DNA of 62,944 bases from assembly GCA_003345545.1 (NCBI GenBank), contig PRDH01000009.1, positions 1 through 62,944 of the forward strand, read 5' to 3'. The DNA is from Candidatus Thorarchaeota archaeon. GTDB lineage: Archaea; Asgardarchaeota; Thorarchaeia; Thorarchaeales; Thorarchaeaceae. Position numbers and translations under genes: made by a program. Of this stretch, positions 1-48,780 are shown one piece after another; position 1 is the first letter of the stretch; each line of letters opens with the position of its first letter. The notes beneath the pieces are model-generated. The model did not search any database. It was given only the letters and a program-made list of their open reading frames with translations, and was not told where the DNA came from.

Positions 1-255
1 TGCCAAATCTATGCTGATGTCTTGAATAGAACAGTCCGACAGGTGAAGGATCCCATCATGGCAAATGCAAGAGGAGCTGCATTTATTGCCGCGGTAGGAC
101 TAGGTTTCTGCAAATCTGATGATATCCCAAGTCTTGTGCAGTACTCGAATATCTTTCATCCGAACCCTGAGAACTGCAAGGTCTATGGCAGACTCTACGG
201 CGAGTTCCTCAATATCTACAAGACCAACAAGGCGATGTATGGCCGCTTGAACTGA
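1..255 (+). CDS. FGGY-family carbohydrate kinase (xylulokinase-like), C-terminal fragment, 5'-truncated by window edge
   Basis: Frame 1 is open from base 1: CQIYADVLNRTVRQV...ANARGAAFIAAVGLG...Y..LY, the typical FGGY kinase C-terminus. Confidence 0.8.
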   Translation, partial: CQIYADVLNRTVRQVKDPIMANARGAAFIAAVGLGFCKSDDIPSLVQYSNIFHPNPENCKVYGRLYGEFLNIYKTNKAMYGRLN

Positions 256-482
256 CAGTGAATGGTGGCTTGAAGAAGGGAGGATTTGGTATGAAGGAAT
301 TTCCCTGTCGTACAGTGAGCGTCCTGTCTGGCGGATACTTGGACAGTGAAATGGCATGGCGATCCTAGTCAGCATGGAGTAGTCTGGCCAGAATACCAGT
401 TTTAACAGAGGTCTTCTGACCCATAAGAATTAATTCCACAATTAAGCAGCATTGACTATTCAACAGGAGGCTCCACTAAGGA

Positions 483-1388
483 ATGCAGGCGGACATCTTC
501 ACACTTTTCGTCAATTTCATCAAGACTCTTCTCCCAACCGCATTTGAAGAATATGCTGGACTGATAGCCTCGCTTCCGGTCTTTGCGTTAATCTATGTGT
601 TCTATCTCATCGTGATTCGTTCTGTGATGCTCACATTCAGGAAAGTTGGGATGCCACGGGAGGCATCAGGTGGAATAATCTTTGGTGTGAGACTCCTCTT
701 CTTCGCATTTGCTCTGCTTTTCCTGCTTGCTTCTGCAGGTAGTGTGCTTTCGGCGTATATTGTCGCAGGCGGAGCAGTCCTAGGAGCATTTATCGGTCTG
801 GCTTTCTCAAAGGCTCTTCAGAACATCGTCAGTGGCTTCTACGTACTGGTGGCTAGACCTTTTCGAGTCGGTGACTATGTCCGGATGGGCGACTCGGAAG
901 GAATCGTAGTAGAAATCACGCTGAACTATACGCGACTTCTCAGGCCTGATCATACTCGCCAGATCATCCCCAACTCAACAACAATTGACCAGCGGCTCAC
1001 AAATTTCCGGGTGCGTGTCGATGACTACTTTGATGAGCGAGGAATGGAATTTGATCGTGATGTCTTTGATCTCGATGGCGAGGAGGAGACAAGGTTTCGT
1101 GACGCAGTGCACAAGCTGAGAAATCTCCTGAAGGGTGACGAGGTGTACAGATACACATTCGATATTGAGTTAGAGAAAACATGTTCCCAATCAGAAGCCA
1201 AGGCATACTTCACCAAGGTCTGTCAGAAATGGGAAGAATCATTCATCCTGCCCCCAGAGTTCTTTTTCTGGAGCAGTGCCGCCACATCCATCACATATCG
1301 ATTTGCATTCGTGGTGATTGATCCGAAAGAAATATTCACGAAGGGTCAAGACTTCAAGGCTGAGTTGGCTCAATTCTCAACGAAATAG
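483..1388 (+). CDS. mscS: Small-conductance mechanosensitive channel (MscS family)
   Basis: N-terminal TM helices; GLAFSKALQNIVSG and RPFRVGDYV...G.V.EITLNYT...IPNS motifs; GGAGG upstream. Confidence 0.85.
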   Translation: MQADIFTLFVNFIKTLLPTAFEEYAGLIASLPVFALIYVFYLIVIRSVMLTFRKVGMPREASGGIIFGVRLLFFAFALLFLLASAGSVLSAYIVAGGAVLGAFIGLAFSKALQNIVSGFYVLVARPFRVGDYVRMGDSEGIVVEITLNYTRLLRPDHTRQIIPNSTTIDQRLTNFRVRVDDYFDERGMEFDRDVFDLDGEEETRFRDAVHKLRNLLKGDEVYRYTFDIELEKTCSQSEAKAYFTKVCQKWEESFILPPEFFFWSSAATSITYRFAFVVIDPKEIFTKGQDFKAELAQFSTK

Positions 1389-2481: not shown

Positions 2482-3525
2482 TTAATCCTTCCAAGGGACT
2501 ATCTCATCATCCCGTTTGTCCAGAGTCTTTTGAACAAACTCCGGATCTGCAAGCAGTGCCCTGCCGATTCCAAGCAAATCGCATAGATTTCTTTTGATGA
2601 CTCGCCTTGCAAACTTTGCATCTCTGACCATACCAACGCCTATCACTGGAATCTTGACTTCGCTCTTGATTTTTGAAGCACATGGAATGCAGCAGTCATA
2701 GGGATAACCACGCAGGAATGCAGGCATGGTCTTCTCGTCAAAGATTGAAGGAATCCCAGGATTGTTTATGGCGTCAACAACGCATGAGATGTGTAGTGCA
2801 TCAACTCCGGCATGTTCGATAATTCGTGCAATCTTGACTGCTTGATCTATCGTGATTCCATTTACTACATTTTCAATTCCGTTCATGCGAAAGATTAGGG
2901 GAAAGCTGCGAAGTTCTCTGCGAATGGCCTTGATGACATCGACCGCGAGTTTTGCTCTCTTCTCAATTGGCCCCCCGTAGTCATCATTCCTATGGTTCGT
3001 ATATGAGGAAAGGAACGCACTTAGAAGATAGAAATGAGCGCCGTGGATCTCCACCCCGTCAAATCCGGCCTCCTGCGCTCGCCGGGCGGCATTCACAAAC
3101 TTGCCTTTGATGTCTTCAATCTCATCCACTGTCAAGACTTCTGGTACCTTGCCCTTCATAACTGGGACTGCTGATGGACCGACATATCGTGTCGCGATGT
3201 GGGATTTGGGCCCTGCGTGATTTATCTGGATGAATGCCCGTGCTCCATATTTCTTGATGCCTTCTGCAAGTGCTGATAGACCAGGAATTACTCTATCATC
3301 ATGGATTCCTATGTTCCGCTTCATAATGCCGTGTGCCCAGTCAATTGCCGCCGCCTCCACAATGATGAGCCCCACCCCTCCCCTACTCCTAGCAGCATAG
3401 TGCTCTATCAGCTCAGGTGTGACAAATCCCTCATCTGTTGCAAGGTTCCGCACCATAGGTGGCATCACTGCTCTATTGCGGACTCTCAACTGACCAATGG
3501 TGATAGGATCTGCAAGGTCTGGCAT
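2482..3525 (-). CDS. NADH:flavin oxidoreductase, Old Yellow Enzyme family
   Basis: RNRAVMPPM, GGVGLIIVE, QINHAG, AGFDGVEIHGAHFYLL, N.R.DDYGG, GRALLADP. Confidence 0.92.
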   Translation of the reverse strand: MPDLADPITIGQLRVRNRAVMPPMVRNLATDEGFVTPELIEHYAARSRGGVGLIIVEAAAIDWAHGIMKRNIGIHDDRVIPGLSALAEGIKKYGARAFIQINHAGPKSHIATRYVGPSAVPVMKGKVPEVLTVDEIEDIKGKFVNAARRAQEAGFDGVEIHGAHFYLLSAFLSSYTNHRNDDYGGPIEKRAKLAVDVIKAIRRELRSFPLIFRMNGIENVVNGITIDQAVKIARIIEHAGVDALHISCVVDAINNPGIPSIFDEKTMPAFLRGYPYDCCIPCASKIKSEVKIPVIGVGMVRDAKFARRVIKRNLCDLLGIGRALLADPEFVQKTLDKRDDEIVPWKD

Positions 3526-3568
3526 TATATTACCAAGTCCTGCACTAGCTCTCTCTGAACCAGTTAGC

Positions 3569-4882
3569 CTATAGGTCTGCTCCAGTCTTTCCTGTTCCCC
3601 ATGACTCCATGGCTATCCTGAGCTCTTCATGTCCTTCTTCCTTTGCATACCTGCTCACTGGGATATCCTGCATCTTGGCTTCAATTGCCTGCCGAAACGC
3701 AATTGCTCCCGCACGAGGACCCTTTGGATGAGCATGAATTCCCGCTCCCGATCCGATTACGATATCTGGACCCAGGTCGTTGATGACCTCTTCTACATGT
3801 CCCGGGCTAATTCCGCCACTTGGCATTGGAGCTGTCTGTTCGATATTCTGAAGGGGCATGACCATATCATGCGCGATATTGAGGAACCGCTCCTTGAGAA
3901 TCGGTGCCTTTCCATATGGTGCAGGAAAGACTGTGATGTCTGCCCCGCAAATCCTTGGTAGTTTTCCAGTGATGATGTTGGATGAAATACCTACGATAGG
4001 TGAGTAGGACATGGCACCCGTTACATCCATGTGTGCAAGAACCGGGACCTTGGGAGACAGGTCCTCACATACATGGAGGAATGCAGCATAACCCACTGCA
4101 AGGAAGTTGATCATCAGTCCATTAGCACCTAGCTCAATAGCTTTGTCTGCATTCTCAAACATTTGAGGCAGTTTGTCAGTTATATTGACTGTATAGAGCG
4201 TCTTCTCGCCCTTCTCAGAGTCTGCACGGTCGAGAGCCTCCATGAATCTCGGAATTCGCTCCTCAATGGTGTTGTAAGCGGGGTTTGCCAGGAGCTCATC
4301 ATCCTTGATGATATCCGCTCCTCCAGCTGCTGCCTCGTAGGCAAGGTCTGCACCCATCTGACATGACGGGTACACACAGGGCTTAATCATATTGTTCAGA
4401 AACGGCCTCTTCTTTACCTTCAGTAGTTTCCTGAGACCCGTAATTCCAAACTTCGGACCCTTGAATCCCTTAAGCCAGCTCTTTGGGAACTTCATGTCAA
4501 GACACTTGATCCTCCCGTAGAGGGAGATGTTACCAACCACGGTGCTGAGAAGCATGGGAATCTGCTGCCCGAAGTTCTCCCAGGGAAAGGCTACTTGCAT
4601 GATGTACTCCCTTCTCTCTAGGTCTTTGGGAAGACTGTATTCGTACTGAGGGACCTCGTAGACTCCGATCACCTTCGCGACGTGCCTCCTTCTGACCTCA
4701 GGAGTTTCTCCGGGAACCATTGTCCAAGTCCCCGTACTCTGTTCGACTGCTGCCGCCCAGGCCATCTCGCGTGCATCCAAGAACGGTGGGAGTCCGACAT
4801 AGTACGTACCTATGATATACTTCTCTTCATCAATTGCATCTGGTAATGCATCCGGTAGTGCATCAAGTGGAAGTCTGTCCAT
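3569..4882 (-). CDS. RuBisCO-like protein (form IV, RLP); probable start is the ATG at 4882 (ORF track extends to 4972)
   Basis: EQSTGTW, FKGPKFG, IKP, GGADIIKDDE, SGG and HAHPKG motifs; several true-RuBisCO residues are substituted. Confidence 0.9.
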   Translation of the reverse strand: MDRLPLDALPDALPDAIDEEKYIIGTYYVGLPPFLDAREMAWAAAVEQSTGTWTMVPGETPEVRRRHVAKVIGVYEVPQYEYSLPKDLERREYIMQVAFPWENFGQQIPMLLSTVVGNISLYGRIKCLDMKFPKSWLKGFKGPKFGITGLRKLLKVKKRPFLNNMIKPCVYPSCQMGADLAYEAAAGGADIIKDDELLANPAYNTIEERIPRFMEALDRADSEKGEKTLYTVNITDKLPQMFENADKAIELGANGLMINFLAVGYAAFLHVCEDLSPKVPVLAHMDVTGAMSYSPIVGISSNIITGKLPRICGADITVFPAPYGKAPILKERFLNIAHDMVMPLQNIEQTAPMPSGGISPGHVEEVINDLGPDIVIGSGAGIHAHPKGPRAGAIAFRQAIEAKMQDIPVSRYAKEEGHEELRIAMESWGTGKTGADL

Positions 4883-39600: not shown

Positions 39601-42600
39601 GTCCAGTTGCCCATCTAGTGTTCCATTACCATAGGTTGAGGCAAGGAGTGGGTCTGTCCCTAGAAGATTGATTTCTACATAATCATCCAGCTGGTCACCA
39701 TCTGTATCTCTTACCGTGATATTGGTTCCATAGAGAATCTCGTCAAAGTCCTCGAGAAGATCTCCGTCCGTGTCACGAAACAATGGACTTGACCCGTAGA
39801 TCAATACCTCGTCCCCGTCATTAATGCCATCATCATCAGAATCAGCATCTCCCGCGTCCGTGTCATAGATGTCGACCTCATCGCCGTTACTCAGGGAGTC
39901 TCCATCACTATCATAGTCATAGTCAGGCACGCCATAGGTCATATTGTTGAGAGGATTCGTACCTGTGACGTTGACCTCGATGAAGTCACTGAGGTCATCA
40001 AAGTCAGAGTCAGAGTTCCATGGGTCTGTGGAGTAATCCTTGACCTCTTCTGAGTCAAGAAGTCCATCTTCGTCACAATCTGCTATAAGAGGTGATGTTC
40101 CATAGAAGTACTCCTCAGCATCATCGAGTCCATCTTGATCTGTATCTGCCTCAAAGGGTGAGGTTTCATTAGGGTCTACAATGCCGTTCACATTGACATC
40201 CTCTCCCTGTTCACCAAGGTGTGGCTCGTATATACCATTCTCATTTGCATCATACCAGCCATCGTAGAGGCCATCGTCGTCTGAGTCTGCACTTGTTGCA
40301 TTCAGACCCGAATCTATCTCAAGTCCATCTCGGATGCGATCTCCATCAGTGTCCCAGTTTGTGCAGTTCGTGTCGTAGGTCCGTATCTCTTGGATGTTAG
40401 TGAGACCGTCATGGTCCTGGTCGTCCTGCCCGTCGAGAATCCCGTCGTCGTCGATATCAGGGTTAGTAGGATCAGTGAGTGTGTCAAAGACCTCCTCCGC
40501 ATCTGTCAATCCATCGGAGTCTGTATCGGCAGCAAGTGGGTCGCAGTTGTGAAGGAGCTCATCCAGGTTGATGAGGTTGTCATTATCAGGGTCTTCCTCC
40601 CAGTCATACACACCGTTGTCGTTTGTATCGTTATACCGGGGGTCCGTTCCTGTCATCACGACTTCGAACCAGTTGGGGAGCTGGTCGTTGTCCTCGTCAT
40701 CATAATAATCAGATATAGAGTCACTATCTGAATCGGTCACATTGAACTTGGTACCAGTTATGTATAGCTCGGCCCCGTTTGACAGTTTATCTCCGTCGAA
40801 GTCCTCGTCATAATCGCTTATCGAGTCGTCATCTGAGTCTGGGTCATTCATGTCTGTATGGAGCAAGTACCACTCGTTCCCATCTTTGACTTTGTCGCCA
40901 TCTGTATCGGGATTTCTGGGCAGTGAGAAGGTGACGAAGAGCTCATCATAGTTTGTGAGCCCATCTAGGTCAGAGTCCTCAAGGTCGTCAGTGAGAGGTA
41001 GCCCGCCGGAGTCCGTGAGCGTAGGATTTGTACGTGTCAAGTAGATCTCCTGATAGTTCGTCAACCGGTCTCCGTCAGAGTCCCAGTTTCCATCCAGAAT
41101 GACTGCATCGAAAGTGTGGGGATTCGTAGCATCCCAACCATTCGCGAGATACTTTACCTCATCAGGGTCCTTGATGCCATCAAGATCAGTATCGACTCGT
41201 GTGGCATTAGTGCTATATGTCAGGACTTCCAACCCGTCTCCGAGTGTGTCTCCATCAGTATCGCTCTTTGTGACGTTCGTGTGCCATGTGTAGCACTCTG
41301 CATAATCACCGAGACCATCAAGGTCCGTATCAGCAGCATTGGGGTCTGATTGCCAGTAGTTGACTTCAAGTCCATCATCAATGAGATCGCCATCAGAGTC
41401 CGGATTCAAGGGATTTGTGTGATAGGTGTTTACTTCGTTCCCGTCACTGATGAGATCATTATCTGAGTCTGGGTCATCGACTTGAGTTCCATAGGTGACG
41501 TATTCTTCATAATCAGTAAGCCCATCGTCGTCTCCGTCGGCCTTCAACGGATCTGAATGCACGATCATGACTTCTTCGTAATCAGTCAACTGGTCATTAT
41601 CCGTGTCTTCCGAGAGCGGCGATGTCTTGCTAACCTTGACTTCATACCCATCAAGTAGCAAATCATCATCAGTGTCTGCATCGTATACGCCTGTGCCCAG
41701 CTGGATCTCCTTCCAGTTGGCAAGGTCGTCACCATCCTGATCATCATAATAATCAGTGGTACCATCATGATCGCTGTCGACATCATTAGGATCGGTCTTG
41801 GTCTGGCGAACCTCCTGAATGTTGGTCAGTCCGTCGCCATCATTGTCGTCTTGAGCATCATTGGTACCATCGTCATCGCTATCAGCTTCAGTGGGCAGAG
41901 TGAGGGTGATGTTGTTTTCCTCATAATCTGTAAGCGTATCCCCGTCAGTGTCTGCTGCGTTGGGATCCGTTCCAAGGTAAATCTCCTGCCAGTCGGTCAA
42001 TTTATCGTTGTCCGAGTCTGCAGAGCTAGGGTCCGTGCCATAAGTGATGACCTCTGCAAAATCAGAGAGCTTGTCAGAGTCTGTGTCTGACAAGAGGGGT
42101 GATGTGTCATAAGTGAGAACTTCATCTCCATCGTTCAAGCCATCGTTATCAGTGTCTGAATCATCATAGAGTGTGTCCTCAATGAGTAACTCCCGAGCAT
42201 CCGCAAGCCCATCGCTATCAAAGTCACGACCATAGGCTGAAACCGCACCACTGTTGGCACCGATGACAAACTCTTGTCCTCCAAATCCATCGAGGTCGCC
42301 ATAAGTCATGACATGGGTGAGCCCGGCGATGTTGGTCTGTAGGGTCCTCCAGCCCGTCGAATTGTACATGGTCACCATATTGTTCGTTGCCACAAGCACT
42401 TGAGCATTAGTCGTTGCACCAACATTAGGGAATAGTACCCTGTTGACCGCACCACTAAGGGTCCTGTTCCAAAGTAGAACGCCGCTCGAGTCATAGATGG
42501 TCAAGACGCTGGATGATGTGCCGAGAGCGAGTTCATGCCTCCCACCTGCCATCAGGCCTCCCACCTCAAGGGCAGTGATGCTGCCCGCAGCATTAACGGT

Positions 42601-43425
42601 ATAGGCTATAGTACCATCTGCATAGACAACGCTGATGGTTCCATTCTCAAGCCCTATAACAACATCAAGATTGCCAGCAGTAGTGAGGTCTCCAAGACGG
42701 ACAGCGCTAATTGCGGAGGCAGATGTCTTATTGAAGATGACAGCACCAGTGTCCTGCAGGAGGGTGAAGCGCTTTGTATCAGATGCAGCAAGGACCTCTT
42801 CACGAGTGTCAGCATCGATGTCAACTGCAGTCAGCAAGCGAATCTTGCCATTGCTCAGATGGCTCCAGAGCAGGGTGGCATCTACTTCGTAAGCGTATAC
42901 ATAGAAGTCATCGCAGCCAACTGCTATCTCCTCCAGGGCATCACCGTCAAGGTTTGCTGCCGCGACTACATGGACCGGCTCCGGCAGGGTGACATTCATC
43001 TGAACGAACTTGTCTGCTCCCACTACCAGGATGCCTGAAGATGTTCCCACGAGAATCTCCTTACCTGCAGCGGTAGTTCCATCTAAGGAAACAATGTTGT
43101 AGGGTGTGGCTCTGAGGTTCAACCGCCACAGAAGCGTACCATCATCATCGAACAGAGAGAGTGTGCCATTCTGAGAGATGACTGCCACCTCATCGTTAGC
43201 ATCAGAATCGAAATTACCCGCTGCGATGTCCACTATCTGATTGCCTGTAGTGGTCGACCATACCAGAGCCGTAGAGAAAGGAGCGATTTCAGATAGAGTG
43301 TATTGTCCTTGTGGGGATTGGATGTTGACTGGTAACTGGCTCGGATCAATCGTCAGTGTCTGACTACTTACGCCAGCGAGAACGCAAACGAACATAATGG
43401 CAATGATTGCATGATAGGTATTCAT
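36625..43425 (-). CDS. Giant type-I membrane surface protein: signal peptide, FG-GAP/VCBS beta-propeller, long TSP3-like Ca-binding repeat stalk, TM helix, cytoplasmic beta-sandwich
   Basis: ATG 43425 overlaps the upstream TGA (ATGA); D.D.D...E...G propeller blades; dozens of D[TS]DxDGLxDxxE repeats; TM WIWPIVLGFGGLFVLAVGV followed by KRMRER. Confidence 0.85.
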   Translation of the reverse strand: MNTYHAIIAIMFVCVLAGVSSQTLTIDPSQLPVNIQSPQGQYTLSEIAPFSTALVWSTTTGNQIVDIAAGNFDSDANDEVAVISQNGTLSLFDDDGTLLWRLNLRATPYNIVSLDGTTAAGKEILVGTSSGILVVGADKFVQMNVTLPEPVHVVAAANLDGDALEEIAVGCDDFYVYAYEVDATLLWSHLSNGKIRLLTAVDIDADTREEVLAASDTKRFTLLQDTGAVIFNKTSASAISAVRLGDLTTAGNLDVVIGLENGTISVVYADGTIAYTVNAAGSITALEVGGLMAGGRHELALGTSSSVLTIYDSSGVLLWNRTLSGAVNRVLFPNVGATTNAQVLVATNNMVTMYNSTGWRTLQTNIAGLTHVMTYGDLDGFGGQEFVIGANSGAVSAYGRDFDSDGLADARELLIEDTLYDDSDTDNDGLNDGDEVLTYDTSPLLSDTDSDKLSDFAEVITYGTDPSSADSDNDKLTDWQEIYLGTDPNAADTDGDTLTDYEENNITLTLPTEADSDDDGTNDAQDDNDGDGLTNIQEVRQTKTDPNDVDSDHDGTTDYYDDQDGDDLANWKEIQLGTGVYDADTDDDLLLDGYEVKVSKTSPLSEDTDNDQLTDYEEVMIVHSDPLKADGDDDGLTDYEEYVTYGTQVDDPDSDNDLISDGNEVNTYHTNPLNPDSDGDLIDDGLEVNYWQSDPNAADTDLDGLGDYAECYTWHTNVTKSDTDGDTLGDGLEVLTYSTNATRVDTDLDGIKDPDEVKYLANGWDATNPHTFDAVILDGNWDSDGDRLTNYQEIYLTRTNPTLTDSGGLPLTDDLEDSDLDGLTNYDELFVTFSLPRNPDTDGDKVKDGNEWYLLHTDMNDPDSDDDSISDYDEDFDGDKLSNGAELYITGTKFNVTDSDSDSISDYYDDEDNDQLPNWFEVVMTGTDPRYNDTNDNGVYDWEEDPDNDNLINLDELLHNCDPLAADTDSDGLTDAEEVFDTLTDPTNPDIDDDGILDGQDDQDHDGLTNIQEIRTYDTNCTNWDTDGDRIRDGLEIDSGLNATSADSDDDGLYDGWYDANENGIYEPHLGEQGEDVNVNGIVDPNETSPFEADTDQDGLDDAEEYFYGTSPLIADCDEDGLLDSEEVKDYSTDPWNSDSDFDDLSDFIEVNVTGTNPLNNMTYGVPDYDYDSDGDSLSNGDEVDIYDTDAGDADSDDDGINDGDEVLIYGSSPLFRDTDGDLLEDFDEILYGTNITVRDTDGDQLDDYVEINLLGTDPLLASTYGNGTLDGQLDHDGDGLSNAIEIYGYHSNATSPDTDGDGLLDGFEAFTTGSSPTDKDSDDDGLSDFDEWTTWHTDLSGTDSDSDGLDDYTEVYVSLTLPTAWDSDGDQLSDGSEWNDYGTDPNSPDTDSDLINDKKELDLGTDPSLNDTDGDGLSDWEEWQIYETDPTQADVDGDGLNDKEEIENDTDWENWDSDFDTISDGDEVNTYGTDPLDPDTDHDNLADADELFNSRTLPDTNDTDGDGIPDDLDDQDADGISNFDEIYLYETNCTLIDTDGDLLSDYYEIFISETSPTKTDTDGDGLSDRDELFYWSSNPLSRDTDGDGLQDSEEALTWHTLLNDTDTDNDLLSDYDEIKVFETDPLQFDTDGDGLGDGAELNNHNTSPLRADTDGDGLFDNQEVNGMYMTFNISGMIESRWVYPNPRETDTDLDGLTDFQETNKTGTDPTLFSTQGNSVSDADWDIDGDMLTNYHEIVLTQTNPRLTDTDGDGRIDGMDDEDRDLLTNWEECVLTETNPRNPDTNGDGVSDYNDDEDQDGLTNGEEINDYATDPLKQDTDGDRLSDFDEVDKYGTSPIMRDTDGDLLDDGAEILDYGTAALLSDTDSDFLTDYEEVVFTNTNPLTNMTHPGVMDGDWDSDDDGLSNLDELRVYNSLPLDPDLDNDDLNDGLEISLGTIIDNPDTDSDQLLDGAEHFLFGTSPLLNDTDNDRIGDYDEVMIYRTNGAYFDTDFDLLSDYDEIFNLGTNPDSNDTDGDGLKDNEEVITYKSDPNSRDGDEDGLTDYFEIFTSHTQPLDNDTDGEGLSDGAEWNNYKTDPLMPDTDLDGLDDYQEVMVYHTDPLSADSDGDGLLDGADFMPTVHWIWPIVLGFGGLFVLAVGVKRMRERYFVKEYVTTSEPASLGLEPGMDVAVEYKIRGGKVIFGVVIRNGSKVPMHNVQVILGVPDLTDAIKTQTIGTVEPDTISVAEIDFELQPGAEGELVGMVEYDSAEGEHRIVNLKPVRIVA
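37080..42230 (-). repeat. Intragenic degenerate coding repeat array (DxDxDGLxDxxE...TxP units of about 13 and 22-23 aa)
   Basis: Roughly 80 units (estimated by eye) over about 1700 aa; diverged at DNA level. Confidence 0.85.
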
Positions 43426-44432
43426 GATGTAGTTCCTCCAATCCCTTCCTCCTTCCATGGTTTGACTTGGAAGTAATCAAAGAAGTCCGACTCAACGAGT
43501 TCGACTCCGTCAAAGGGCATCTTCATCTCGTTGAGCCTCGTAATGACAGGCAACAGATGGTCAGCTGGTTCGTCGATGAAGAGTTTTACTGCGTTTCTTC
43601 CGGAGAGAGAGACATATTGTACATCTGGGATGGCCATGATGCGCCGCATGATTTCAGGTGTGAGTGCATGGAGTGTGACCCTTAGGCTCTCTCCCTTTCC
43701 TGGAAGAGTCGATATCAATTCCTCTGGTGTGCCGAATTGGCTGATCTCGCCCTCTTCAAGCAGGACCACGCGTGTGCAGTAATCAACAATCTCAAGGTCG
43801 TGGCTAATGATGACCATCGTTGTGCCGAGTTCGTGGTTGAGCATCTTGAGATAGTTGAGGGTTTCATGTCTGAGATGTGCATCAAGCCCAGTCGTGGGCT
43901 CGTCCAACAAGAGGACTGGCGGATTGTGAACCATGCCAAGGCATATTGAAACGCGTTTTCTCTCTCCACCGGAAAGTCTGTCCACACGCTTGGTCATTAG
44001 TTCCTCGTCAAACCCCAGGATTGAAAGGACACTTCTTGCCCGTTCCTCTATCTCTTTTGGTCTGAGTCCATAGCATCTTCCGAAGAACTGTGCATTCTGG
44101 AGCGGTGTGAACTCATAGTAAAGACTGAGATGCTCGAGCTGGGGGACGTATCCGACAAGCAGACTGATGAGGTTTGCCTTCTTGGTCACATCGTAACCGC
44201 CGACAAATGCCTGCCCGGAGGTTGGTCTTATCTGTCCTGTCAAGATTCTAAGGACGGTCGTCTTCCCTGCTCCTGAAGCTCCAATGACGCCGAGAAACTC
44301 CTTCTTGTTTGCAAAGAAGGACACGCCCTTCAATGCATAGAAGTCCCCAAAGGCCACCTTCAGGTCAATGATGTCAATCTCTCTGTAGGTTTCCTTTGAT
44401 GTACGTTCATTCCTCTTGCCCACCCTATACAC
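43422..44432 (-). CDS. ABC-2 type transporter ATP-binding protein
   Basis: GASGAGKTT, LSGGE, LLLDEPTTGLD, SH; C-terminal accessory domain. Confidence 0.92.
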   Translation of the reverse strand: MYRVGKRNERTSKETYREIDIIDLKVAFGDFYALKGVSFFANKKEFLGVIGASGAGKTTVLRILTGQIRPTSGQAFVGGYDVTKKANLISLLVGYVPQLEHLSLYYEFTPLQNAQFFGRCYGLRPKEIEERARSVLSILGFDEELMTKRVDRLSGGERKRVSICLGMVHNPPVLLLDEPTTGLDAHLRHETLNYLKMLNHELGTTMVIISHDLEIVDYCTRVVLLEEGEISQFGTPEELISTLPGKGESLRVTLHALTPEIMRRIMAIPDVQYVSLSGRNAVKLFIDEPADHLLPVITRLNEMKMPFDGVELVESDFFDYFQVKPWKEEGIGGTTS

Positions 44433-47400
44433 CTCCTACCTTATCGCTCACGCGCTCGAACATCTTCTTTCCTTCTTCAATGCTCTGCATCAGGACACGG
44501 AGAGCCTCGACCTTCTGAATACGATCGAGATCCTCTCGTTTGATGAGCTCCTCCAACTGCGCGAATGCGGCTAGGAGGGTGTTCAGAGTATTGTCAATCT
44601 CACGACGGAGGTCGCTGTCGATCTCGGGAATCCGGAGCCTCTTCTTCATTCTTCTACGATTATACACGAGACCTCCGATTAGCGTACCAAAGATGCCTAT
44701 TGACGTGATGAAAGCGACTTGGGGCATGGTGAGCCATTTGAATGGATCAACAGGCGGCGTGGTTGGTGTCAACTCATATAGGAAGAAGTAGACGCTTGCA
44801 TAGGTCATTGCATAGTTCTCATCACCCAGAATGATGAAGATACCATTGATTCTCCCTGCGGAGTTCCATGAGCCGGGGGCGAACTGAGATGAGTAGAGAC
44901 CCTTCTCGACAAATCCTGCTATAAAATACGAGAGGTTTCCATTAGGAAGTTCATAGACGATGGCCACGAACAGGTCGTCTACAGGATTTCCGTTGACGTC
45001 ACTAAGAACGAGATTGAGATAGACGCTCTCGCCAACTGGATACATTGTCGTGTTCTCAGACAGACTAGTCGATGTTGTCAATGTGTTCCTCAGGAGGTAC
45101 TGATTGAGATTATCGAGGAGCCTGCTGTTGTTACACTTGACTAGATTCTTGTTCATGAATATCTTCGAGGAACCAAAGACTGCAACTTCGGGGTCTGTCT
45201 GGTCAAGTACAACCACACTATTTCCATCGAGTCTCACTTGTGCATTGGACTGATTGTTCATGATGAATGTGCCGCCGCCCAACCAGACGGATTGGAGTCC
45301 CATCCCTAGGCGGGAAGTTGCTGCAATCTCTGTTGTGTTTTCCTTCGAGTGACTTCCTTCAAAGAAGTATCCGTACGTCATGATCAATGGATTCAGAGCC
45401 GAGATGTTTGCATTGTCATCATTGTCGCCTAGGATGACAAGCGTGCCACCGCCTTCGGTGAAGTTTCTGAGGATGTCGATATCTGTTGAGTTGTACTCAT
45501 TAGTTGGAGCGATAATGAACACTGTTGAGAAAGATATGAGAAGGTCTGCATCAAGATCCATTCCAGGTGTCTCTATGAGGTCTAGACCGACATTGGCCAT
45601 GCTCGTCTTCATGTTTGACAGACCTGAGAAAGTCGTGATTCTGAAGGAGTCCAAGAGTCCTGTGAGAGAATCGAGACTCCCTAGGTCTCCGAGGTCGAAG
45701 TTCATTGAAATTCCAGTATCGCCTGATTGCTCTTCTTGAGCAAGAGGGAACTCAAGTCCTTGGGTTCCTTCACTTCCTATGAGGTCACCTGAATCTCCGC
45801 CCAAGCTCATGTTTCCTAAAAGAGAGCCAAATCCACCCCCGTGCGACGTGTCCAAGAGCATCATTGCCCGAGGATACTCAACCACTCTCTCTAGGGTGAT
45901 ATTCATCGTCCATCCATAGTCAGTTTCAACAACATAATCACATCTATGATACCCATCCATGCCTATAGGCGGGGACAAAAGAAAGAGTGAGAAGTCATAG
46001 AATCCCTCAATCGTGTCTGCGCGCGTGAGGGACATATTGCCCCAGTCTGATGCATTACCATGATTTGTGATGGTCATGTTTCCCAGGGACTCCGTCGTAG
46101 CTAGAACAAAGCTATAGAGCCCGAAGTCTGCAGGGAATCGGATATCGAATGGTGCGAATGGAAGTATCTTCGGAAAGACAGAAGTAGACGAGATAGGCGA
46201 GATAATGAAGACATCTCTAAGCAGAAAATCATCCAGAATGCCAAGAACCAAGGTGTTAATATTCTGTGTCAGACCAATCACGGACTCGAGGCTCGCTGCC
46301 ACGGCCCAAACCGCAGTTCTGATGCCAGCTCCTTCTGGATGATACGTAGCAGTCATATTCATCGCTTGGAACGGTCTAATAATGTCGTATGAGAAGTACT
46401 CTGCAAACAACGCTCCGCTGTCGCCAAGATTTTCTGCAACGACCATTGCGGCAATTGCTGATGAATTATAGACTCCAACATTCATGATGAGTGCTTGTGA
46501 CACGTAGGTCTGTCCTATCGCAACAATCCGTGGTAGATTGGCCTCTACAACAATGAGGTCTCCTTGATTGGCGATGAAGCTGGGGACCTCGTTCAGCCAC
46601 ATTGCGTCCATTGATGCGTCAAGAACCGTTCTGTTCTCTCCGAAGCCTAGCGCGATGGTGACGTTTACGGGGTTGTTTACCTCAACCGTTCCAAAATCCC
46701 ACTGCAGTGCAAGCGCTACGCTCCCGTCAAAGGCAGTAGTCCCTGTCAGAGCATTGTCTGAGATATGACTCGATATCTCTGAGGAGTTGCCCACCTCGAA
46801 TGCTGATAAGGGAATGCTCGAGTTGAGCCCAAGATAAAAATTGCCATAGCCCTCAGATAGACCATAGGCGAATAGCTGTTCGTGATCGAGGTCATATTTG
46901 CCGTGGTCATCTCTTCCATCCAAGAAGAGATCCAACGAATATGAGACGTAGAGACTCACGTTCTCGATTGGTTTTGACCCGAGATTGAGAACGTACGGTG
47001 TGATTCTGAATGCGGTCAGCGGTAGTGCTGAATAGGTACTGAGGTTGTATGACTCAACGACCAGCGTGACGAAGACTTCATCCTCATATGACAATATTCC
47101 AATATGGCGGTCGTAGTTCGTCAGTGTACTTGCCATCACGACTTGGTGTAGTTCGCGCTTGACATCGAACATCATCAGGTTCACTGGGTCCATATCGTTC
47201 CACTTGAGCGAGAACATACCCATCATGAGATGCATGCCTGAGTCCTGAGGATTCCGTGAGTCAAGGGCAATGACCGTGGTGCCGAAACTGCTCATCAACA
47301 TCGTTGTGGATGCATTTCTGCCCGATGCAGATACAAGACCCAGAGCAAGAAGTGGTGTACCTGTTGTACGATTATGGGGACTTACAGGGGTTTGTCGCAT

Positions 47401-48780
47401 ACTCAGATAATCAAAAGCACCTTGAATGTTCAGAAGGCCAGCTCCGCCATCATTTGCCCCATATCCAATCGGGCTGGCTGTATCCCGGAGAACATTTCCA
47501 AGCGTAATTGGAGTTGCTCTATCAAAGGCTTGAAGCAGTATTGCCGCAGTTCCTGCTATGATGGCTGCTGAAGCTGTTGTTGTATCTGCAATAGTGAAGT
47601 TCTCTTCTACAGTTTCACCGAGGGGTTCTCCTAAGAGACTTCCAAGACCACCGAGATCTCCCAGGTCAGTAAGATCAATGTCACCAAATCCCAGACTACT
47701 AAGACCCACCCCGGCCTTAGCGCCAACGATTCCGACACCAGGCGCCACGATGTCTGGTTTGGTGAGCAGATCAAGGGAAGGGCCCCTTCCTGAAAAATCG
47801 GGGATTTTCTCTTTCTCTGTATCATAGGCACCCACGCAAAAAGCAGCAGCGCTTCCGCCTGGGGACATGACTGTGAGATAATCTGGGCCGTCGTCACCTG
47901 CAGCTGCAATAACAAAGATGCCTTTCTCTGCAGCGTCTTGAATGGCCACTGAAACCGCGTCGCCTGGAGCACCAAAGGTATTGAATGGTAGGAGGATGAT
48001 GTCTGCTCCTCGACTGCTTGCCCATTCGATGCCCGAGACTATCCAACTTGGAGCTGCAAAGAGGCCTCCCAAAGTGACCTTGGCAGAGAGCAATGTTGCA
48101 CCGGGAGCTATGCCTGCATATTTTCCATCTGACATATTGCCGTTTCCCACAGCTACCGAGGCAGCATAGGTGCCATGCCCAATGAGGTCCAGAGGAAGTG
48201 TATCTGCCTCGACAAAGGATGCGAATGCTGAAACTGTCAAGTCCGGATGAAGCGGGTCCACTCCGGTGTCGAGGACAGCTATGACCACGCCAGTTCCGTT
48301 GTATCCTGCCTCGACGAGGTTTCTCGCTCCTATTCGGTCGACTAGAGGTACATAGTCCCCGAGTTCTGCGATCGTGCTGCTCTCTGTCTGCCTTATCGCG
48401 GTGACCTGATTTGACCATATCTTCGTGATGAAAACTTCTCTGGCGAGCTCCAGCAAGGACGTGCTGAGCATCCTCACCCGTATCATATCGAGCAACTCGA
48501 ATGTGTCCAACAACTCCGCAGTCCTGTCAGCCATCAGTATTGCATTCTCTGCCTTGTACGAAGCCACATCATCGTAACCGACAAGAACCTCAAGTCGTTC
48601 CTCAACTTGGGTGCGATTGAGCAGTGTCGTGTCAATCTTATCCTGCGGCAGTATCTGGTACATTGCTGTTCCTGTTACAATAGGGATGCCAGTCATACCA
48701 CTGAGCGTGATCGAAACGATCATAATGCATGTGAACAGCTTTGGGCACAGCCAATGCATTGCTCTCGAGGTTTCTGACAT
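44425..48780 (-). CDS. Membrane-anchored S8 subtilase-like protein with GIFT (GldG/IFT52/S1P-type) domain; catalytic Ser replaced by Thr
   Basis: VLDTG (Asp), GHGT (His), AAAGD, KPDIVAPG, DTTTASAAIIAG in place of GTSMA; LLDTSHG...FIIAP...GGGTLVILGD; C-terminal TM and coiled tail. Confidence 0.8.
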   Translation of the reverse strand: MSETSRAMHWLCPKLFTCIMIVSITLSGMTGIPIVTGTAMYQILPQDKIDTTLLNRTQVEERLEVLVGYDDVASYKAENAILMADRTAELLDTFELLDMIRVRMLSTSLLELAREVFITKIWSNQVTAIRQTESSTIAELGDYVPLVDRIGARNLVEAGYNGTGVVIAVLDTGVDPLHPDLTVSAFASFVEADTLPLDLIGHGTYAASVAVGNGNMSDGKYAGIAPGATLLSAKVTLGGLFAAPSWIVSGIEWASSRGADIILLPFNTFGAPGDAVSVAIQDAAEKGIFVIAAAGDDGPDYLTVMSPGGSAAAFCVGAYDTEKEKIPDFSGRGPSLDLLTKPDIVAPGVGIVGAKAGVGLSSLGFGDIDLTDLGDLGGLGSLLGEPLGETVEENFTIADTTTASAAIIAGTAAILLQAFDRATPITLGNVLRDTASPIGYGANDGGAGLLNIQGAFDYLSMRQTPVSPHNRTTGTPLLALGLVSASGRNASTTMLMSSFGTTVIALDSRNPQDSGMHLMMGMFSLKWNDMDPVNLMMFDVKRELHQVVMASTLTNYDRHIGILSYEDEVFVTLVVESYNLSTYSALPLTAFRITPYVLNLGSKPIENVSLYVSYSLDLFLDGRDDHGKYDLDHEQLFAYGLSEGYGNFYLGLNSSIPLSAFEVGNSSEISSHISDNALTGTTAFDGSVALALQWDFGTVEVNNPVNVTIALGFGENRTVLDASMDAMWLNEVPSFIANQGDLIVVEANLPRIVAIGQTYVSQALIMNVGVYNSSAIAAMVVAENLGDSGALFAEYFSYDIIRPFQAMNMTATYHPEGAGIRTAVWAVAASLESVIGLTQNINTLVLGILDDFLLRDVFIISPISSTSVFPKILPFAPFDIRFPADFGLYSFVLATTESLGNMTITNHGNASDWGNMSLTRADTIEGFYDFSLFLLSPPIGMDGYHRCDYVVETDYGWTMNITLERVVEYPRAMMLLDTSHGGGFGSLLGNMSLGGDSGDLIGSEGTQGLEFPLAQEEQSGDTGISMNFDLGDLGSLDSLTGLLDSFRITTFSGLSNMKTSMANVGLDLIETPGMDLDADLLISFSTVFIIAPTNEYNSTDIDILRNFTEGGGTLVILGDNDDNANISALNPLIMTYGYFFEGSHSKENTTEIAATSRLGMGLQSVWLGGGTFIMNNQSNAQVRLDGNSVVVLDQTDPEVAVFGSSKIFMNKNLVKCNNSRLLDNLNQYLLRNTLTTSTSLSENTTMYPVGESVYLNLVLSDVNGNPVDDLFVAIVYELPNGNLSYFIAGFVEKGLYSSQFAPGSWNSAGRINGIFIILGDENYAMTYASVYFFLYELTPTTPPVDPFKWLTMPQVAFITSIGIFGTLIGGLVYNRRRMKKRLRIPEIDSDLRREIDNTLNTLLAAFAQLEELIKREDLDRIQKVEALRVLMQSIEEGKKMFERVSDKVGGV

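What the first reader, a model, noticed from the sequence alone, without database searches (positions are those of the whole stretch)
44425..48780. Site-1 protease (MBTPS1/SKI-1)-like architecture in a probable Asgard archaeon
Seen: signal peptide, prodomain-like segment, S8 domain, beta-rich spacer, a domain beginning YPRAMMLLDTSHG with FIIAP...GGGTLVILGD...N..LL.N (about 45100-45880), a TM helix and a cytosolic helical tail. Known: GIFT domains occur in GldG, IFT52, OST48/Wbp1 and eukaryotic site-1 protease, which is S8 + GIFT + C-terminal TM. Inference: a prokaryotic relative of the S1P architecture, linking the GldG-type ABC auxiliary role to the eukaryotic protease.
Basis: partly seen in the sequence, partly recalled or inferred. 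Interest (0 to 1): 0.75.

Follow-up and report, generated by a model that had tools for sequence, protein, structure and literature searches.

The report
Dead subtilase-GIFT protein shaped like S1P
This Thorarchaeota (Asgard archaeon) gene encodes a large membrane-anchored surface protein with the same body plan as the human site-1 protease, but its protease site is dead and it always sits in an ABC-transporter operon, so it is most likely that transporter's outer accessory subunit, not a processing protease.

Summary
Window 44425-48780 (- strand) encodes a 1451-aa protein with these parts in order: N-terminal hydrophobic anchor, I9-like prodomain, S8 subtilase domain, about 480 aa of beta-sandwiches, GIFT domain, Ig-like domain, TM helix and conserved cytosolic tail.

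- **GIFT fold:** confirmed. IFT52 Z 22.4, OST48 18.6, S1P 18.3, against generic GATase-like folds at 13-14.
- **Shape:** the modelled ectodomain superposes on human S1P over 583 residues at 5.0 A. This covers S8, one beta-sandwich and GIFT.
- **Active site:** dead. The nucleophile is Thr here, and T59/A44/S7 across 113 orthologues. The oxyanion Asn is Asp in 111 of 113.
- **Sequence affinity:** the S8 sequence is far closer to archaeal Tk-SP (263 bits) than to S1P (140 bits). S8-GIFT fusions also occur with thermitase-type S8 domains.
- **Context:** an ABC-2 permease and ABC ATPases flank the gene in 6 of 6 loci examined.
- **Distribution:** the family-specific middle region was found in 79 of 201 Asgard genomes.
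- **Paralogue:** an intact-triad, 973-aa paralogue elsewhere in this genome is the closer S1P look-alike.

My reading is a non-catalytic, GldG-like accessory subunit. Common descent with S1P is unresolved, because no S1P-inclusive tree could be built. This scan reached the same reading earlier on other Asgard genomes.

The parts
44425..48780 (-). Whole gene: 1451-aa dead-subtilase/GIFT bitopic membrane protein (P0002). An alternative in-frame TTG start lies at 48795.
   Evidence: ORF list and translation; codon check; about 136 near-full-length homologues of 1435-1491 aa.
48661..48780 (-). N-terminal region with a hydrophobic stretch (residues 11-37): signal peptide or signal anchor.
   Evidence: Kyte-Doolittle window above 1.6. 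Whether it is cleaved was not tested.
48406..48648 (-). I9-like prodomain (about residues 45-125), followed by a poorly conserved, low-confidence linker.
   Evidence: AF2 gives beta-alpha-beta-beta-alpha-beta with pLDDT 85-90, and the linker is below 50. In the family-profile search the match to Tk-SP (3afg, ProN-Tk-SP) starts at chain residue 27. The linker shows 24% mean identity.
47386..48351 (-). Subtilase (S8) fold domain with a degenerate active site. Asp171 is at 48268-48270 and His202 at 48175-48177. The oxyanion position is Asp296 (GAC, 47893-47895). The nucleophile position is Thr402 (ACA, 47575-47577).
   Evidence: Pfam Peptidase_S8 E 1.9e-38. Alignment to the catalytic Ser of mycosin MycP1 and the Ser-to-Ala site of Tk-SP. 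Column counts T59/A44/S7 and Asp 111 of 113. Distant members carry A/F/G. Codons checked. This is the most conserved domain, at 72.8%.
46231..47337 (-). Three extra beta-sandwich domains (about residues 482-850) inserted between S8 and the P-like sandwich. They are specific to this family.
   Evidence: AF2 secondary structure with pLDDT mostly 84-95. Family-specific HMM hits. Found in 79 of 201 Asgard genomes. Only generic CARDB/NPCBM_assoc-like look-alikes in the Atlas.
45886..46230 (-). Last beta-sandwich (about residues 851-965). It is the counterpart of the Tk-SP jelly-roll and the S1P P-like subdomain.
   Evidence: The VIA alignments of Tk-SP (model 93..917) and S1P (99..1189, 583 residues) extend into it. 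hhalign shows it collinear with the spacer of the active paralogue family, sharing a GNAS motif.
45061..45885 (-). GIFT domain (about residues 966-1240) with a disordered acidic Gly/Leu-rich insert (about 983-1040).
   Evidence: IFT52_GIFT 33 bits on the domain alone, and 45 of 46 family members match. Model pLDDT is above 90 in the core. Foldseek: IFT52 7.6e-11 and S1P 9.4e-8. VIA: IFT52 Z 22.4, OST48 18.6, S1P 18.3.
44776..45048 (-). Membrane-proximal beta domain, called Ig-like by sequence pattern only (about residues 1245-1335).
   Evidence: Conserved at 67.9%. A family HMM for this region hits distant members. Not modelled.
44659..44721 (-). C-terminal transmembrane helix (residues 1354-1374).
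   Evidence: Hydropathy 1.8-1.9, followed by a basic RRRMKKR stop-transfer run.
44428..44658 (-). Conserved 77-aa cytosolic tail, probably helical.
   Evidence: 60% mean identity, invariant IPE(I/L)D-type motif, no sequons. Retained in the distant member L018. That it is helical is inferred from the sequence.
50474..51649 (-). Operon partner: ABC-2 permease (391 aa).
   Evidence: ABC2_membrane_3 E 2e-27. Adjacent in 6 of 6 family loci.
48785..50464 (-). Operon partner: ABC ATPase with a TrmB-like N-terminal extension of about 240 aa (559 aa).
   Evidence: ABC_tran 9.7e-27 and Regulator_TrmB 1.7e-10. About 145 homologues; every one that carries a name is from an Asgard archaeon.
43422..44432 (-). 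Operon partner: second ABC ATPase (336 aa). Its start overlaps the stop of the S8-GIFT gene.
   Evidence: ABC_tran 1.5e-26. DrrA/GldA-type by NCBIfam, below the cut-offs. Same position in L006, L007 and L023.
36625..43458 (-). Last gene of the cluster: 2277-aa beta-propeller plus TSP3-repeat giant protein, a candidate client or partner.
   Evidence: TSP3_bac E 4.9e-44 with 10 stretches, plus propeller families. Giant ORFs sit in the same position in L007 (2233 aa) and L023 (2196 aa), and a TSP3_bac protein lies nearby in L022.

Best explanation
The gene encodes a non-catalytic, subtilase-shaped surface protein that serves as the extracytoplasmic accessory subunit of the ABC-2 transporter encoded around it. 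The role resembles that of GldG.

Shown:
- An S8 fold that lacks the Ser nucleophile and the oxyanion Asn, yet is the best-conserved domain.
- A true GIFT domain.
- A predicted S8 / beta-sandwich / GIFT core packed as in site-1 protease.
- An N-terminal hydrophobic segment plus a C-terminal TM helix.
- Strict synteny with an ABC-2 permease and ABC ATPases, two different ones in 5 of the 6 loci examined.

Inferred:
- The dead protease cleft, probably with its uncleaved prodomain, and the GIFT domain act as binding or scaffold surfaces outside the cell.
- ATP-driven movements of the permease are transmitted to this ectodomain through the TM helix and the conserved tail.
- The system exports, anchors or remodels a glycosylated surface component. 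The co-encoded giant Ca-binding repeat protein is the obvious candidate.

In evolutionary terms the protein is an enlarged, inactivated branch of an Asgard clade of S8/beta-sandwich/GIFT/TM proteins. The intact members of that clade, including a 973-aa paralogue in this genome, share the S1P body plan. Whether eukaryotic S1P descends from this clade is open.
For: **Dead site**
- Alignment to the catalytic Ser of MycP1 and Tk-SP places Thr402 there.
- The column reads T59/A44/S7, and the oxyanion is Asp in 111 of 113.
- Distant Asgard members carry A/F/G there, and some lose Asp or His.
- The S8 domain is still the most conserved, at 72.8%.

**GIFT**
- Pfam: 45 of 46 members match IFT52_GIFT and 43 of 46 match ABC_transp_aux.
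- VIA Z: 22.4 for IFT52, 18.6 for OST48 and 18.3 for S1P, against 13-14 for generic GATase-like folds.

**S1P-like core**
- Ectodomain model with pLDDT 82.4 and pTM 0.78.
- S1P is the top Foldseek hit.
- VIA gives 583 residues at 5.0 A, and the Atlas S1P cluster gives 599 residues at 4.9 A.

**ABC link**
- Permease and ATPases flank the gene in the window and in L006, L007, L021, L022 and L023, including members only 19-35% identical.
- The TrmB-like ATPase family (145 proteins at E <= 0.001; all named hits Asgard) is about as large as the S8-GIFT family (136).
- The intact paralogue is not next to ABC genes.

**Clade**
- The pseudo-family is monophyletic (100/99) inside an 80/84 clade with the intact Asgard S8-GIFT-TM families.
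- The P-like plus GIFT region is collinear with the paralogue family (hhalign probability 93%, E 3e-7).

**Topology**
- All 27 sequons lie in the ectodomain.
Against: - No direct evidence of physical association with the transporter. Synteny alone is the basis.
- The window protein's own ABC_transp_aux score (15-19 bits) is below Pfam's cut-off of 34.7, and no NCBIfam GldG model matched.
- Thr could in principle act as a weak nucleophile, and Asp171 and His202 are intact in this copy. Seven orthologues carry Ser.
- The inter-domain packing comes from an AF2 prediction based on 44 sequences, not from an experiment.
- The cargo is unknown, and the giant neighbour is replaced by a 784-aa protein in L006.
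Confidence: 0.68

Rival explanations
1. Direct evolutionary relative of eukaryotic S1P. The S8 / P-like / GIFT / TM fusion arose once in archaea and was inherited by eukaryotes from an Asgard ancestor. The window gene is an inactivated, enlarged paralogue of that lineage.
For: - Same domain order, and a rigid-body superposition of 583-599 residues on solved and predicted S1P.
- S1P is the best whole-model Foldseek hit.
- The GIFT domain is 18-20% identical to S1P residues 617-874.
- 7 of 46 family members, and several other Asgard S8-GIFT proteins, reach MBTPS1_4th, with a best E of 4.6e-11.
- An intact 973-aa paralogue has a prodomain, S8, a spacer of about 150 aa, GIFT, a TM helix and a short tail.
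Against: - S8 sequence: Tk-SP scores 263 or 298 bits against 140 or 159 for S1P, which is about the level of ordinary subtilisins.
- IFT52 is a closer GIFT match than S1P.
- MBTPS1_3rd matches 0 of 201 Asgard genomes.
- S8-GIFT proteins also occur with thermitase-type S8 domains.
- An archaeal cluster (commonest phylum Methanobacteriota) aligns across the whole S8-to-GIFT span of the model.
- No tree with S1P was made.
Confidence: 0.25
2. The resemblance to S1P reflects independent or repeated fusion of a common prokaryotic pair (a Tk-SP/pyrolysin-type subtilase with its beta-sandwich, plus a GIFT module). The two domains tend to pack the same way, and there is no special link to the eukaryotic enzyme.
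For: - S8-GIFT fusions exist with at least two S8 subfamilies: thermitase-type P0169, P0172, P0191 and P0263, which form a separate 100/100 clade.
- The S8 domain plus jelly-roll already occurs in Tk-SP, which aligns over 332 residues with Z 39.6.
- The sequence scores do not favour S1P.
Against: The same 3D arrangement over about 590 residues is hard to get by chance. The thermitase-type proteins were not folded, so it is unknown whether their domains pack alike.
Confidence: 0.35
3. It is an active protease that uses Thr402 with His202 and Asp171. It processes a membrane or surface substrate such as the giant neighbour, as S1P does.
For: Asp and His are intact in this copy. Thr or Ser occupies the nucleophile column in 66 of 113 orthologues. 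A prodomain is present.
Against: - Ala occupies the column in 44 of 113 orthologues, and A/F/G in all distant members.
- The oxyanion Asn is Asp in 111 of 113.
- His or Asp is lost in several members while the domain stays highly conserved.
- From established knowledge of subtilisins: Ser-to-Thr replacement in classical Ser-His-Asp triads nearly abolishes activity.
Confidence: 0.07
4. It is a free-standing glycosylated surface or adhesion protein. It is merely co-transcribed with an unrelated ABC exporter and is not part of the transporter.
For: It has a large, sequon-rich ectodomain with CARDB-like beta-sandwiches. No physical interaction has been demonstrated.
Against: Adjacency to the permease and ATPases persists down to 19-35% identity across several Asgard families. 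GIFT/ABC_transp_aux domains are the hallmark of ABC-2 accessory proteins. The cytosolic tail is conserved.
Confidence: 0.1

Closest known systems
Eukaryotic site-1 protease (MBTPS1 / S1P / SKI-1; PDB 8UW8, 8UWC, 9CSD; PMC11231238, PMC12067269)
   Same: The order is the same: signal/anchor, prodomain, S8, beta-sandwich, GIFT, TM, cytosolic tail. The modelled S8 / sandwich / GIFT core superposes over 583 residues at 5.0 A with Z 39.4. The GIFT domain matches with Z 18.3 at 20% identity.
   Different: - No Ser nucleophile and no oxyanion Asn.
- About 370 aa of extra beta-sandwiches, plus an extra membrane-proximal domain.
- A long conserved tail instead of a short basic one.
- An ABC-2 operon context.
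- The S8 sequence is no closer to S1P than to ordinary subtilisins.
- No MBTPS1_3rd or MBTPS1_4th hit for the window protein.
GldG and the 'ABC-type uncharacterized transport system' accessory proteins (Pfam ABC_transp_aux) of GldA/GldF/GldG-type ABC-2 transporters
   Same: A GIFT-type domain (the name comes from GldG and IFT52, PMC7226087). Hydrophobic segments at both ends. The gene lies next to an ABC-2 permease and DrrA/GldA-like ATPases.
   Different: It carries a pseudo-subtilase head and four beta-sandwiches. There are two different ATPases, one with a TrmB-like extension. It is archaeal. The window copy scores below the ABC_transp_aux cut-off.
Tk-SP, subtilisin-like protease of Thermococcus kodakarensis (PDB 3AFG, 9UES)
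   Same: It is the best sequence match for the prodomain plus S8 region (263 bits with the family profile). The S8 domain plus beta-jelly-roll aligns over 332 residues with Z 39.6.
   Different: Tk-SP is an active secreted protease. The solved Tk-SP chains (409-539 residues) end with the jelly-roll domain and show no GIFT domain. That it lacks a TM anchor and an ABC context rests on my own knowledge.
IFT52 N-terminal GIFT domain (5FMR/5FMS) and OST48/Wbp1 (6S7T, 8B6L, 6EZN)
   Same: These are the closest folds to the C-terminal domain: Z 22.4 at 2.4 A over 196 residues, and Z 18.6.
   Different: They are eukaryotic scaffold subunits without a subtilase domain, and only 12-18% identical.
Subtilase-fold pseudoproteases and binding proteins: CspC/CspA of Clostridioides difficile, and PCSK9
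   Same: A subtilisin fold kept for binding or signalling after loss or disuse of catalysis. NCBIfam lists CspC as a 'non-triad' pseudoprotease, and the window protein hits it weakly. PMC11231238 describes PCSK9 as retaining its prodomain and being inactive on external substrates.
   Different: No specific sequence relationship. Those proteins have no GIFT domain, membrane anchor or ABC partner.

Membership tests
Peptidase S8 (subtilase) as a fold/homology family | Significant match to the Peptidase_S8 profile and a subtilisin fold | tested here: met
   Pfam E 1.9e-38. VIA Z about 36, 269 residues at 1.8 A to subtilisin BPN'.
Peptidase S8 as an active enzyme | Catalytic Ser in the GTSxA motif | tested here: not met
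   Thr402 aligns to the catalytic Ser of MycP1 and Tk-SP. The column reads T59/A44/S7, and A/F/G in distant members.
Peptidase S8 as an active enzyme | Oxyanion-hole Asn (subtilisin N155) | tested here: not met
   Asp296, in 111 of 113 orthologues. The intact paralogue has Asn at this position.
Peptidase S8 as an active enzyme | Catalytic Asp and His | tested here: met
   Asp171 and His202 are present in the window protein. His is replaced in 5 orthologues, and Asp or His in some distant members.
GIFT domain (GldG / IFT52 / OST48 / S1P) | Profile match to a GIFT family model | tested here: met
   IFT52_GIFT scores 33 bits on the domain against a cut-off of 27.2. 45 of 46 family members match.
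GIFT domain (GldG / IFT52 / OST48 / S1P) | Fold closer to known GIFT domains than to generic class-I GATase-like folds | tested here: met
   IFT52 Z 22.4, OST48 18.6 and S1P 18.3, against 13-14 for GATase-1 enzymes.
Site-1 protease (MBTPS1) | Domain order prodomain / S8 / beta-sandwich / GIFT / TM / tail | tested here: met
   Three extra beta-sandwiches and one extra membrane-proximal domain are inserted.
Site-1 protease (MBTPS1) | S8 and GIFT packed together as in 8UW8 | tested here: met
   In a predicted model only: 583 residues at 5.0 A with Z 39.4, and 599 residues at 4.9 A to the Atlas S1P cluster.
Site-1 protease (MBTPS1) | Working Asp-His-Asn-Ser catalytic machinery | tested here: not met
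Site-1 protease (MBTPS1) | Match to S1P-specific Pfam families MBTPS1_3rd (PF23094) and MBTPS1_4th (PF23090) | tested here: not met
   The window protein gives no hit at E <= 0.1. PF23094 matches 0 of 201 Asgard genomes. PF23090 does not match the own genome, although 7 of 46 family members reach it.
Site-1 protease (MBTPS1) | S8 domain groups specifically with S1P in a phylogeny | not tested
   No S1P sequence was available by reference. As a proxy only: S1P scores 140 bits, against 263 for Tk-SP and about 160 for subtilisin BPN'.
GldG-type ABC-2 accessory subunit (ABC_transp_aux) | Profile match above the curated cut-off | tested here: inconclusive
   The window copy scores 15-19 bits against a cut-off of 34.7. 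43 of 46 members match at E <= 0.01, and member L018 scores 36.6 bits.
GldG-type ABC-2 accessory subunit (ABC_transp_aux) | Encoded next to an ABC-2 permease and its ATPase | tested here: met
   6 of 6 loci examined.
GldG-type ABC-2 accessory subunit (ABC_transp_aux) | Large extracytoplasmic domain between N- and C-terminal hydrophobic segments | tested here: met
   Hydropathy. Sequons occur only between the two segments.
GldG-type ABC-2 accessory subunit (ABC_transp_aux) | Physical and functional association with the transporter | not testable with these tools
   Needs co-purification, structure or genetics.

The most novel reading that the evidence does not exclude
Asgard archaea hold the ancestral lineage of the site-1 protease body plan (prodomain / S8 / beta-sandwich / GIFT / TM). 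One branch stayed an active membrane protease and gave rise to eukaryotic S1P. Another lost catalysis and became the outer subunit of a so far undescribed ABC-2-driven surface machine. On this reading the GIFT module's role next to membrane transport and glycoprotein handling predates eukaryotes.
Probability: 0.2. Interest if true: 0.8.

Novelty: new variant of a known kind. Interest (0 to 1): 0.55.

Why it matters
Databases label this protein 'S8 family serine peptidase', but it almost certainly cannot cut. It defines a mostly single-copy family found in 79 of 201 sampled Asgard genomes and tied to a dedicated ABC-2 transporter of unknown cargo.

Its core has the shape of site-1 protease, the enzyme that starts SREBP and ATF6 signalling in the eukaryotic Golgi. 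Its GIFT domain is of the kind found in OST48 and IFT52. If the Asgard clade proves to be sister to S1P, this would add a secretory-pathway protease to the list of eukaryotic signature proteins with archaeal roots. It would also make the origin of that protease testable.

I found no paper in the searched library that links Asgard archaea to S1P or to GIFT domains.

Tried and rejected
- **Complex prediction.** I tested the 77-aa cytosolic tail against the two ATPases. The result was no verdict (score 0.00 against a mark of 0.32), so it is evidence neither for nor against binding.
- **S1P-inclusive phylogeny.** This was not run. The only S1P letters I had were in a printed PDB alignment. No tool gave a referenced S1P sequence, and I did not type one in.
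- **NCBIfam.** No GldG or other specific model matched. Only sub-threshold mycosin, CspC and PatA hits appeared.
- **PDB sequence search with the C-terminal 987 aa.** This gave only IFT52 at E 0.27.
- **Atlas feature search of the middle region.** This returned only generic CARDB/NPCBM_assoc-like bacterial clusters.
- **MBTPS1_3rd in 201 Asgard genomes.** No match.
- **Nearby Ser404 as a shifted nucleophile.** Rejected, because that residue is not conserved.
- **The 973-aa paralogue as part of an ABC operon.** Rejected, because its neighbours are unrelated.

Full report
**What is there.** Window 44425-48780 (- strand) is one intact ORF. An in-frame TTG lies 15 nt upstream. The public database form, P0002, has 1451 aa. 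The assembly is 2.69 Mb in 82 contigs and 92.9% complete.

**Anatomy (P0002 numbering).**
- A hydrophobic segment at 11-37 and a TM helix at 1354-1374 bracket the rest. All 27 N-x-S/T sequons lie between them.
- The AF2 model of residues 45-1244 used 44 sequences and scored pLDDT 82.4 and pTM 0.78. It shows four parts:
  - an I9-type beta-alpha-beta-beta-alpha-beta prodomain, followed by a disordered linker;
  - a subtilisin fold;
  - four beta-sandwich domains (about 482-965);
  - an alpha/beta domain (about 966-1240) interrupted by a disordered acidic Gly/Leu loop.
- A further conserved beta domain (1245-1335), the TM helix and a conserved 77-aa tail follow.
- The tail being helical, and the 1245-1335 domain being Ig-like, are inferences from sequence. 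Neither was modelled.

**The S8 domain is a pseudo-protease.** Pfam Peptidase_S8 matches at E 1.9e-38.
- HMMER alignments to mycosin MycP1 and Tk-SP put Thr402 (ACA, 47575-47577) at the catalytic Ser position.
- Among 113 full-length Thorarchaeota orthologues this column reads T 59, A 44 and S 7. The oxyanion Asn is Asp in 111. His is replaced in 5.
- Distant members, 19-35% identical in the regions compared, carry A, F or G there, and some also lose Asp or His.
- Despite this, the S8 domain is the most conserved part of the protein, with 72.8% mean pairwise identity.
- The domain is therefore kept for something other than catalysis.

**The C-terminal domain is a GIFT domain.**
- On its own it scores 33 bits on IFT52_GIFT against a cut-off of 27.2.
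- Across 46 family members, 45 match IFT52_GIFT, 43 ABC_transp_aux, 38 DUF4350 and 7 MBTPS1_4th.
- The domain model has a core pLDDT above 90. Its best Foldseek hits are IFT52 at E 7.6e-11 and S1P at 9.4e-8.
- VIA-align gives these scores:

| Target | Z | rmsd / aligned |
|---|---|---|
| IFT52 | 22.4 | 2.4 A / 196 |
| OST48 | 18.6 | 3.8 A / 197 |
| S1P residues 617-874 (20% identity) | 18.3 | 3.1 A / 200 |
| Generic class-I GATase-like folds | 13-14 | 2.6-5.4 A / 165-214 |

**Resemblance to S1P.** PMC11231238 and PMC12067269 describe S1P as signal peptide, A/B prodomains, Peptidase S8, P-like beta-sandwich, GIFT (617-998), TM and tail.
- The whole ectodomain model has S1P as its best Foldseek hit: 9csd_A at 1.9e-24, and 8uw8_A with TM 0.56 normalised by the target.
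- VIA aligns 583 of 738 S1P residues at 5.0 A with Z 39.4, spanning model residues 99-1189 and chain residues 190-874.
- A predicted arthropod S1P cluster in the ESM Atlas aligns over 599 residues at 4.9 A.
- So the similarity is not only in linear order. The S8 domain, the last beta-sandwich and the GIFT domain are predicted to pack as in S1P.
- The three other beta-sandwiches are an insertion, specific to this family, between S8 and the P-like sandwich.

**What does not point to S1P.**
- With the family profile, PDB sequences score as follows: Tk-SP 263 bits, Vpr 166, subtilisin BPN' about 160 and S1P 140. The intact paralogue family gives 298, 196, about 165 and 159.
- By sequence, the window's GIFT region finds IFT52 (E 0.27) and not S1P.
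- MBTPS1_4th does not match the window protein. MBTPS1_3rd matches none of 201 Asgard genomes.
- S8-GIFT fusions also exist with thermitase-type S8 domains (P0169, P0172, P0191, P0263). Three of these (P0169, P0172, P0191) were scanned with Pfam, and their GIFT domains match MBTPS1_4th above its cut-off.
- In the Atlas, an 839-aa archaeal cluster (commonest phylum Methanobacteriota) aligns across the whole S8-to-GIFT span of the model.
- A tree that includes S1P could not be built, because no referenced S1P sequence was available.

**Family context.**
- This genome has a second S8-GIFT-TM protein on contig C39 (L008:7924-10845, - strand; 973 aa). It has an intact Asp/His/Asn/Ser set, a spacer of about 150 aa, a GIFT domain, a TM helix and a short tail. 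That family is also widespread in Thorarchaeota.
- In an S8 tree, the dead family is monophyletic (100/99). It sits in an 80/84 clade with the intact Asgard families and apart from the thermitase-type fusions.
- Profile-profile comparison aligns the P-like sandwich plus GIFT of the two families collinearly (probability 93%, E 3.2e-7, 230 columns).
- The window gene is therefore an enlarged, inactivated branch of an Asgard S8/sandwich/GIFT/TM clade. The intact paralogue is the closer S1P look-alike.
- The family-specific middle region is found in 79 of 201 sampled Asgard genomes: 41 of 43 in the window's own family, and also in families f2, f7, f9, f12, f16, f19 and f24. It is mostly one copy per genome, in ORFs of 1400-1630 aa.

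**Gene neighbourhood and mechanism.**
- The gene is third in a same-strand cluster: ABC-2 permease (50474-51649), ABC ATPase with a TrmB-like N-terminal extension (48785-50464), this gene, a second ABC ATPase (43422-44432, overlapping the stop codon), and a 2277-aa propeller plus TSP3-repeat protein (36625-43458).
- The permease and ATPases accompany the gene in all five other loci examined, including distant members. The intact paralogue has no ABC neighbours.
- The long ATPase family (145 proteins at E <= 0.001; all named hits Asgard) is about as large as the S8-GIFT family (136).
- GIFT/ABC_transp_aux proteins such as GldG are accessory subunits of ABC-2 transporters (the GIFT name is explained in PMC7226087).
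- I therefore read the protein as the extracytoplasmic accessory subunit of this transporter. Its dead protease cleft, probably with a retained prodomain, and its GIFT domain would serve as binding surfaces. Its TM helix and conserved tail would couple it to the membrane and ATPase parts. The co-encoded giant surface protein is the likely client.
- The synteny, the folds and the dead active site are shown. The coupling and the client are inferred. A complex prediction for tail against ATPases gave no verdict.

**Novelty.** No paper in the searched library joins Asgard archaea with S1P or with GIFT domains. This scan has already reported the same family on other Asgard genomes with the same reading (e1-5383555, e1-5477680, e1-5421655 and others). 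It has also reported the intact S1P-like family (e1-5422418, e1-5449393). My results were obtained independently and agree with them. I class the finding as a new variant of known kinds: an S1P-like body plan and a GldG-like accessory role, combined with a pseudo-subtilase.

Noticed in passing
G000 contig C39 = L008:7924-10845 (- strand), outside the window: A 973-aa paralogue with an intact Asp/His/Asn/Ser set, a spacer of about 150 aa, a GIFT domain, a TM helix and a short tail. It is closer to S1P in size and in having an intact catalytic set than the window gene, and it is not next to ABC genes. Three S8 genes lie within 15 kb there.
   Followed up: partly
window 48785-50464 (-): An ABC ATPase with an N-terminal extension of about 240 aa that matches the TrmB effector-binding domain (E 1.7e-10). 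About 145 homologues were found, and all that carry a name are Asgard. The family is about as large as the dead-subtilase family.
   Followed up: partly
window 36625-43458 (-): A 2277-aa protein with beta-propeller hits (PQQ_2, BBS2/BBS7-like) and at least 10 TSP3_bac Ca-binding repeats. Giant ORFs of 2233 and 2196 aa hold the same position in L007 and L023.
   Followed up: partly
window 51822-54164 (+) and 54183-55130 (+): A divergently transcribed 780-aa ORF with no Pfam match, followed by an EamA transporter. ORFs of 818 and 698 aa without Pfam hits sit at the same place in L006 and L007.
   Followed up: no
window 47605-47715 and 45661-45834 (-): Two disordered acidic Gly/Leu-rich loops, one inside the S8 domain and one inside the GIFT domain. 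Both contain a DLGDLG-type motif, and both are modelled with pLDDT below 50.
   Followed up: no
L021 (Logan SRR33785056 contig), 664-1266 and 2959-4818: In a distant member's locus an OST3_OST6-family gene lies nearby. The long ABC ATPase there shows PCI (weak) and E3_UFM1_ligase/DDRGK (faint) hits in place of the TrmB-like domain.
   Followed up: no
ESM Atlas, fold search row 1: An 839-aa archaeal S8 cluster (Archaea 100%; commonest phylum Methanobacteriota, known for 5 of 202 members) aligns with the model over 510 residues, spanning S8 through GIFT. S8-GIFT architectures are therefore not confined to Asgard archaea.
   Followed up: no
G197:C106:8958-10394: The orthologue in one genome of the same genus has a single in-frame TAG within the middle region.
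   Followed up: no
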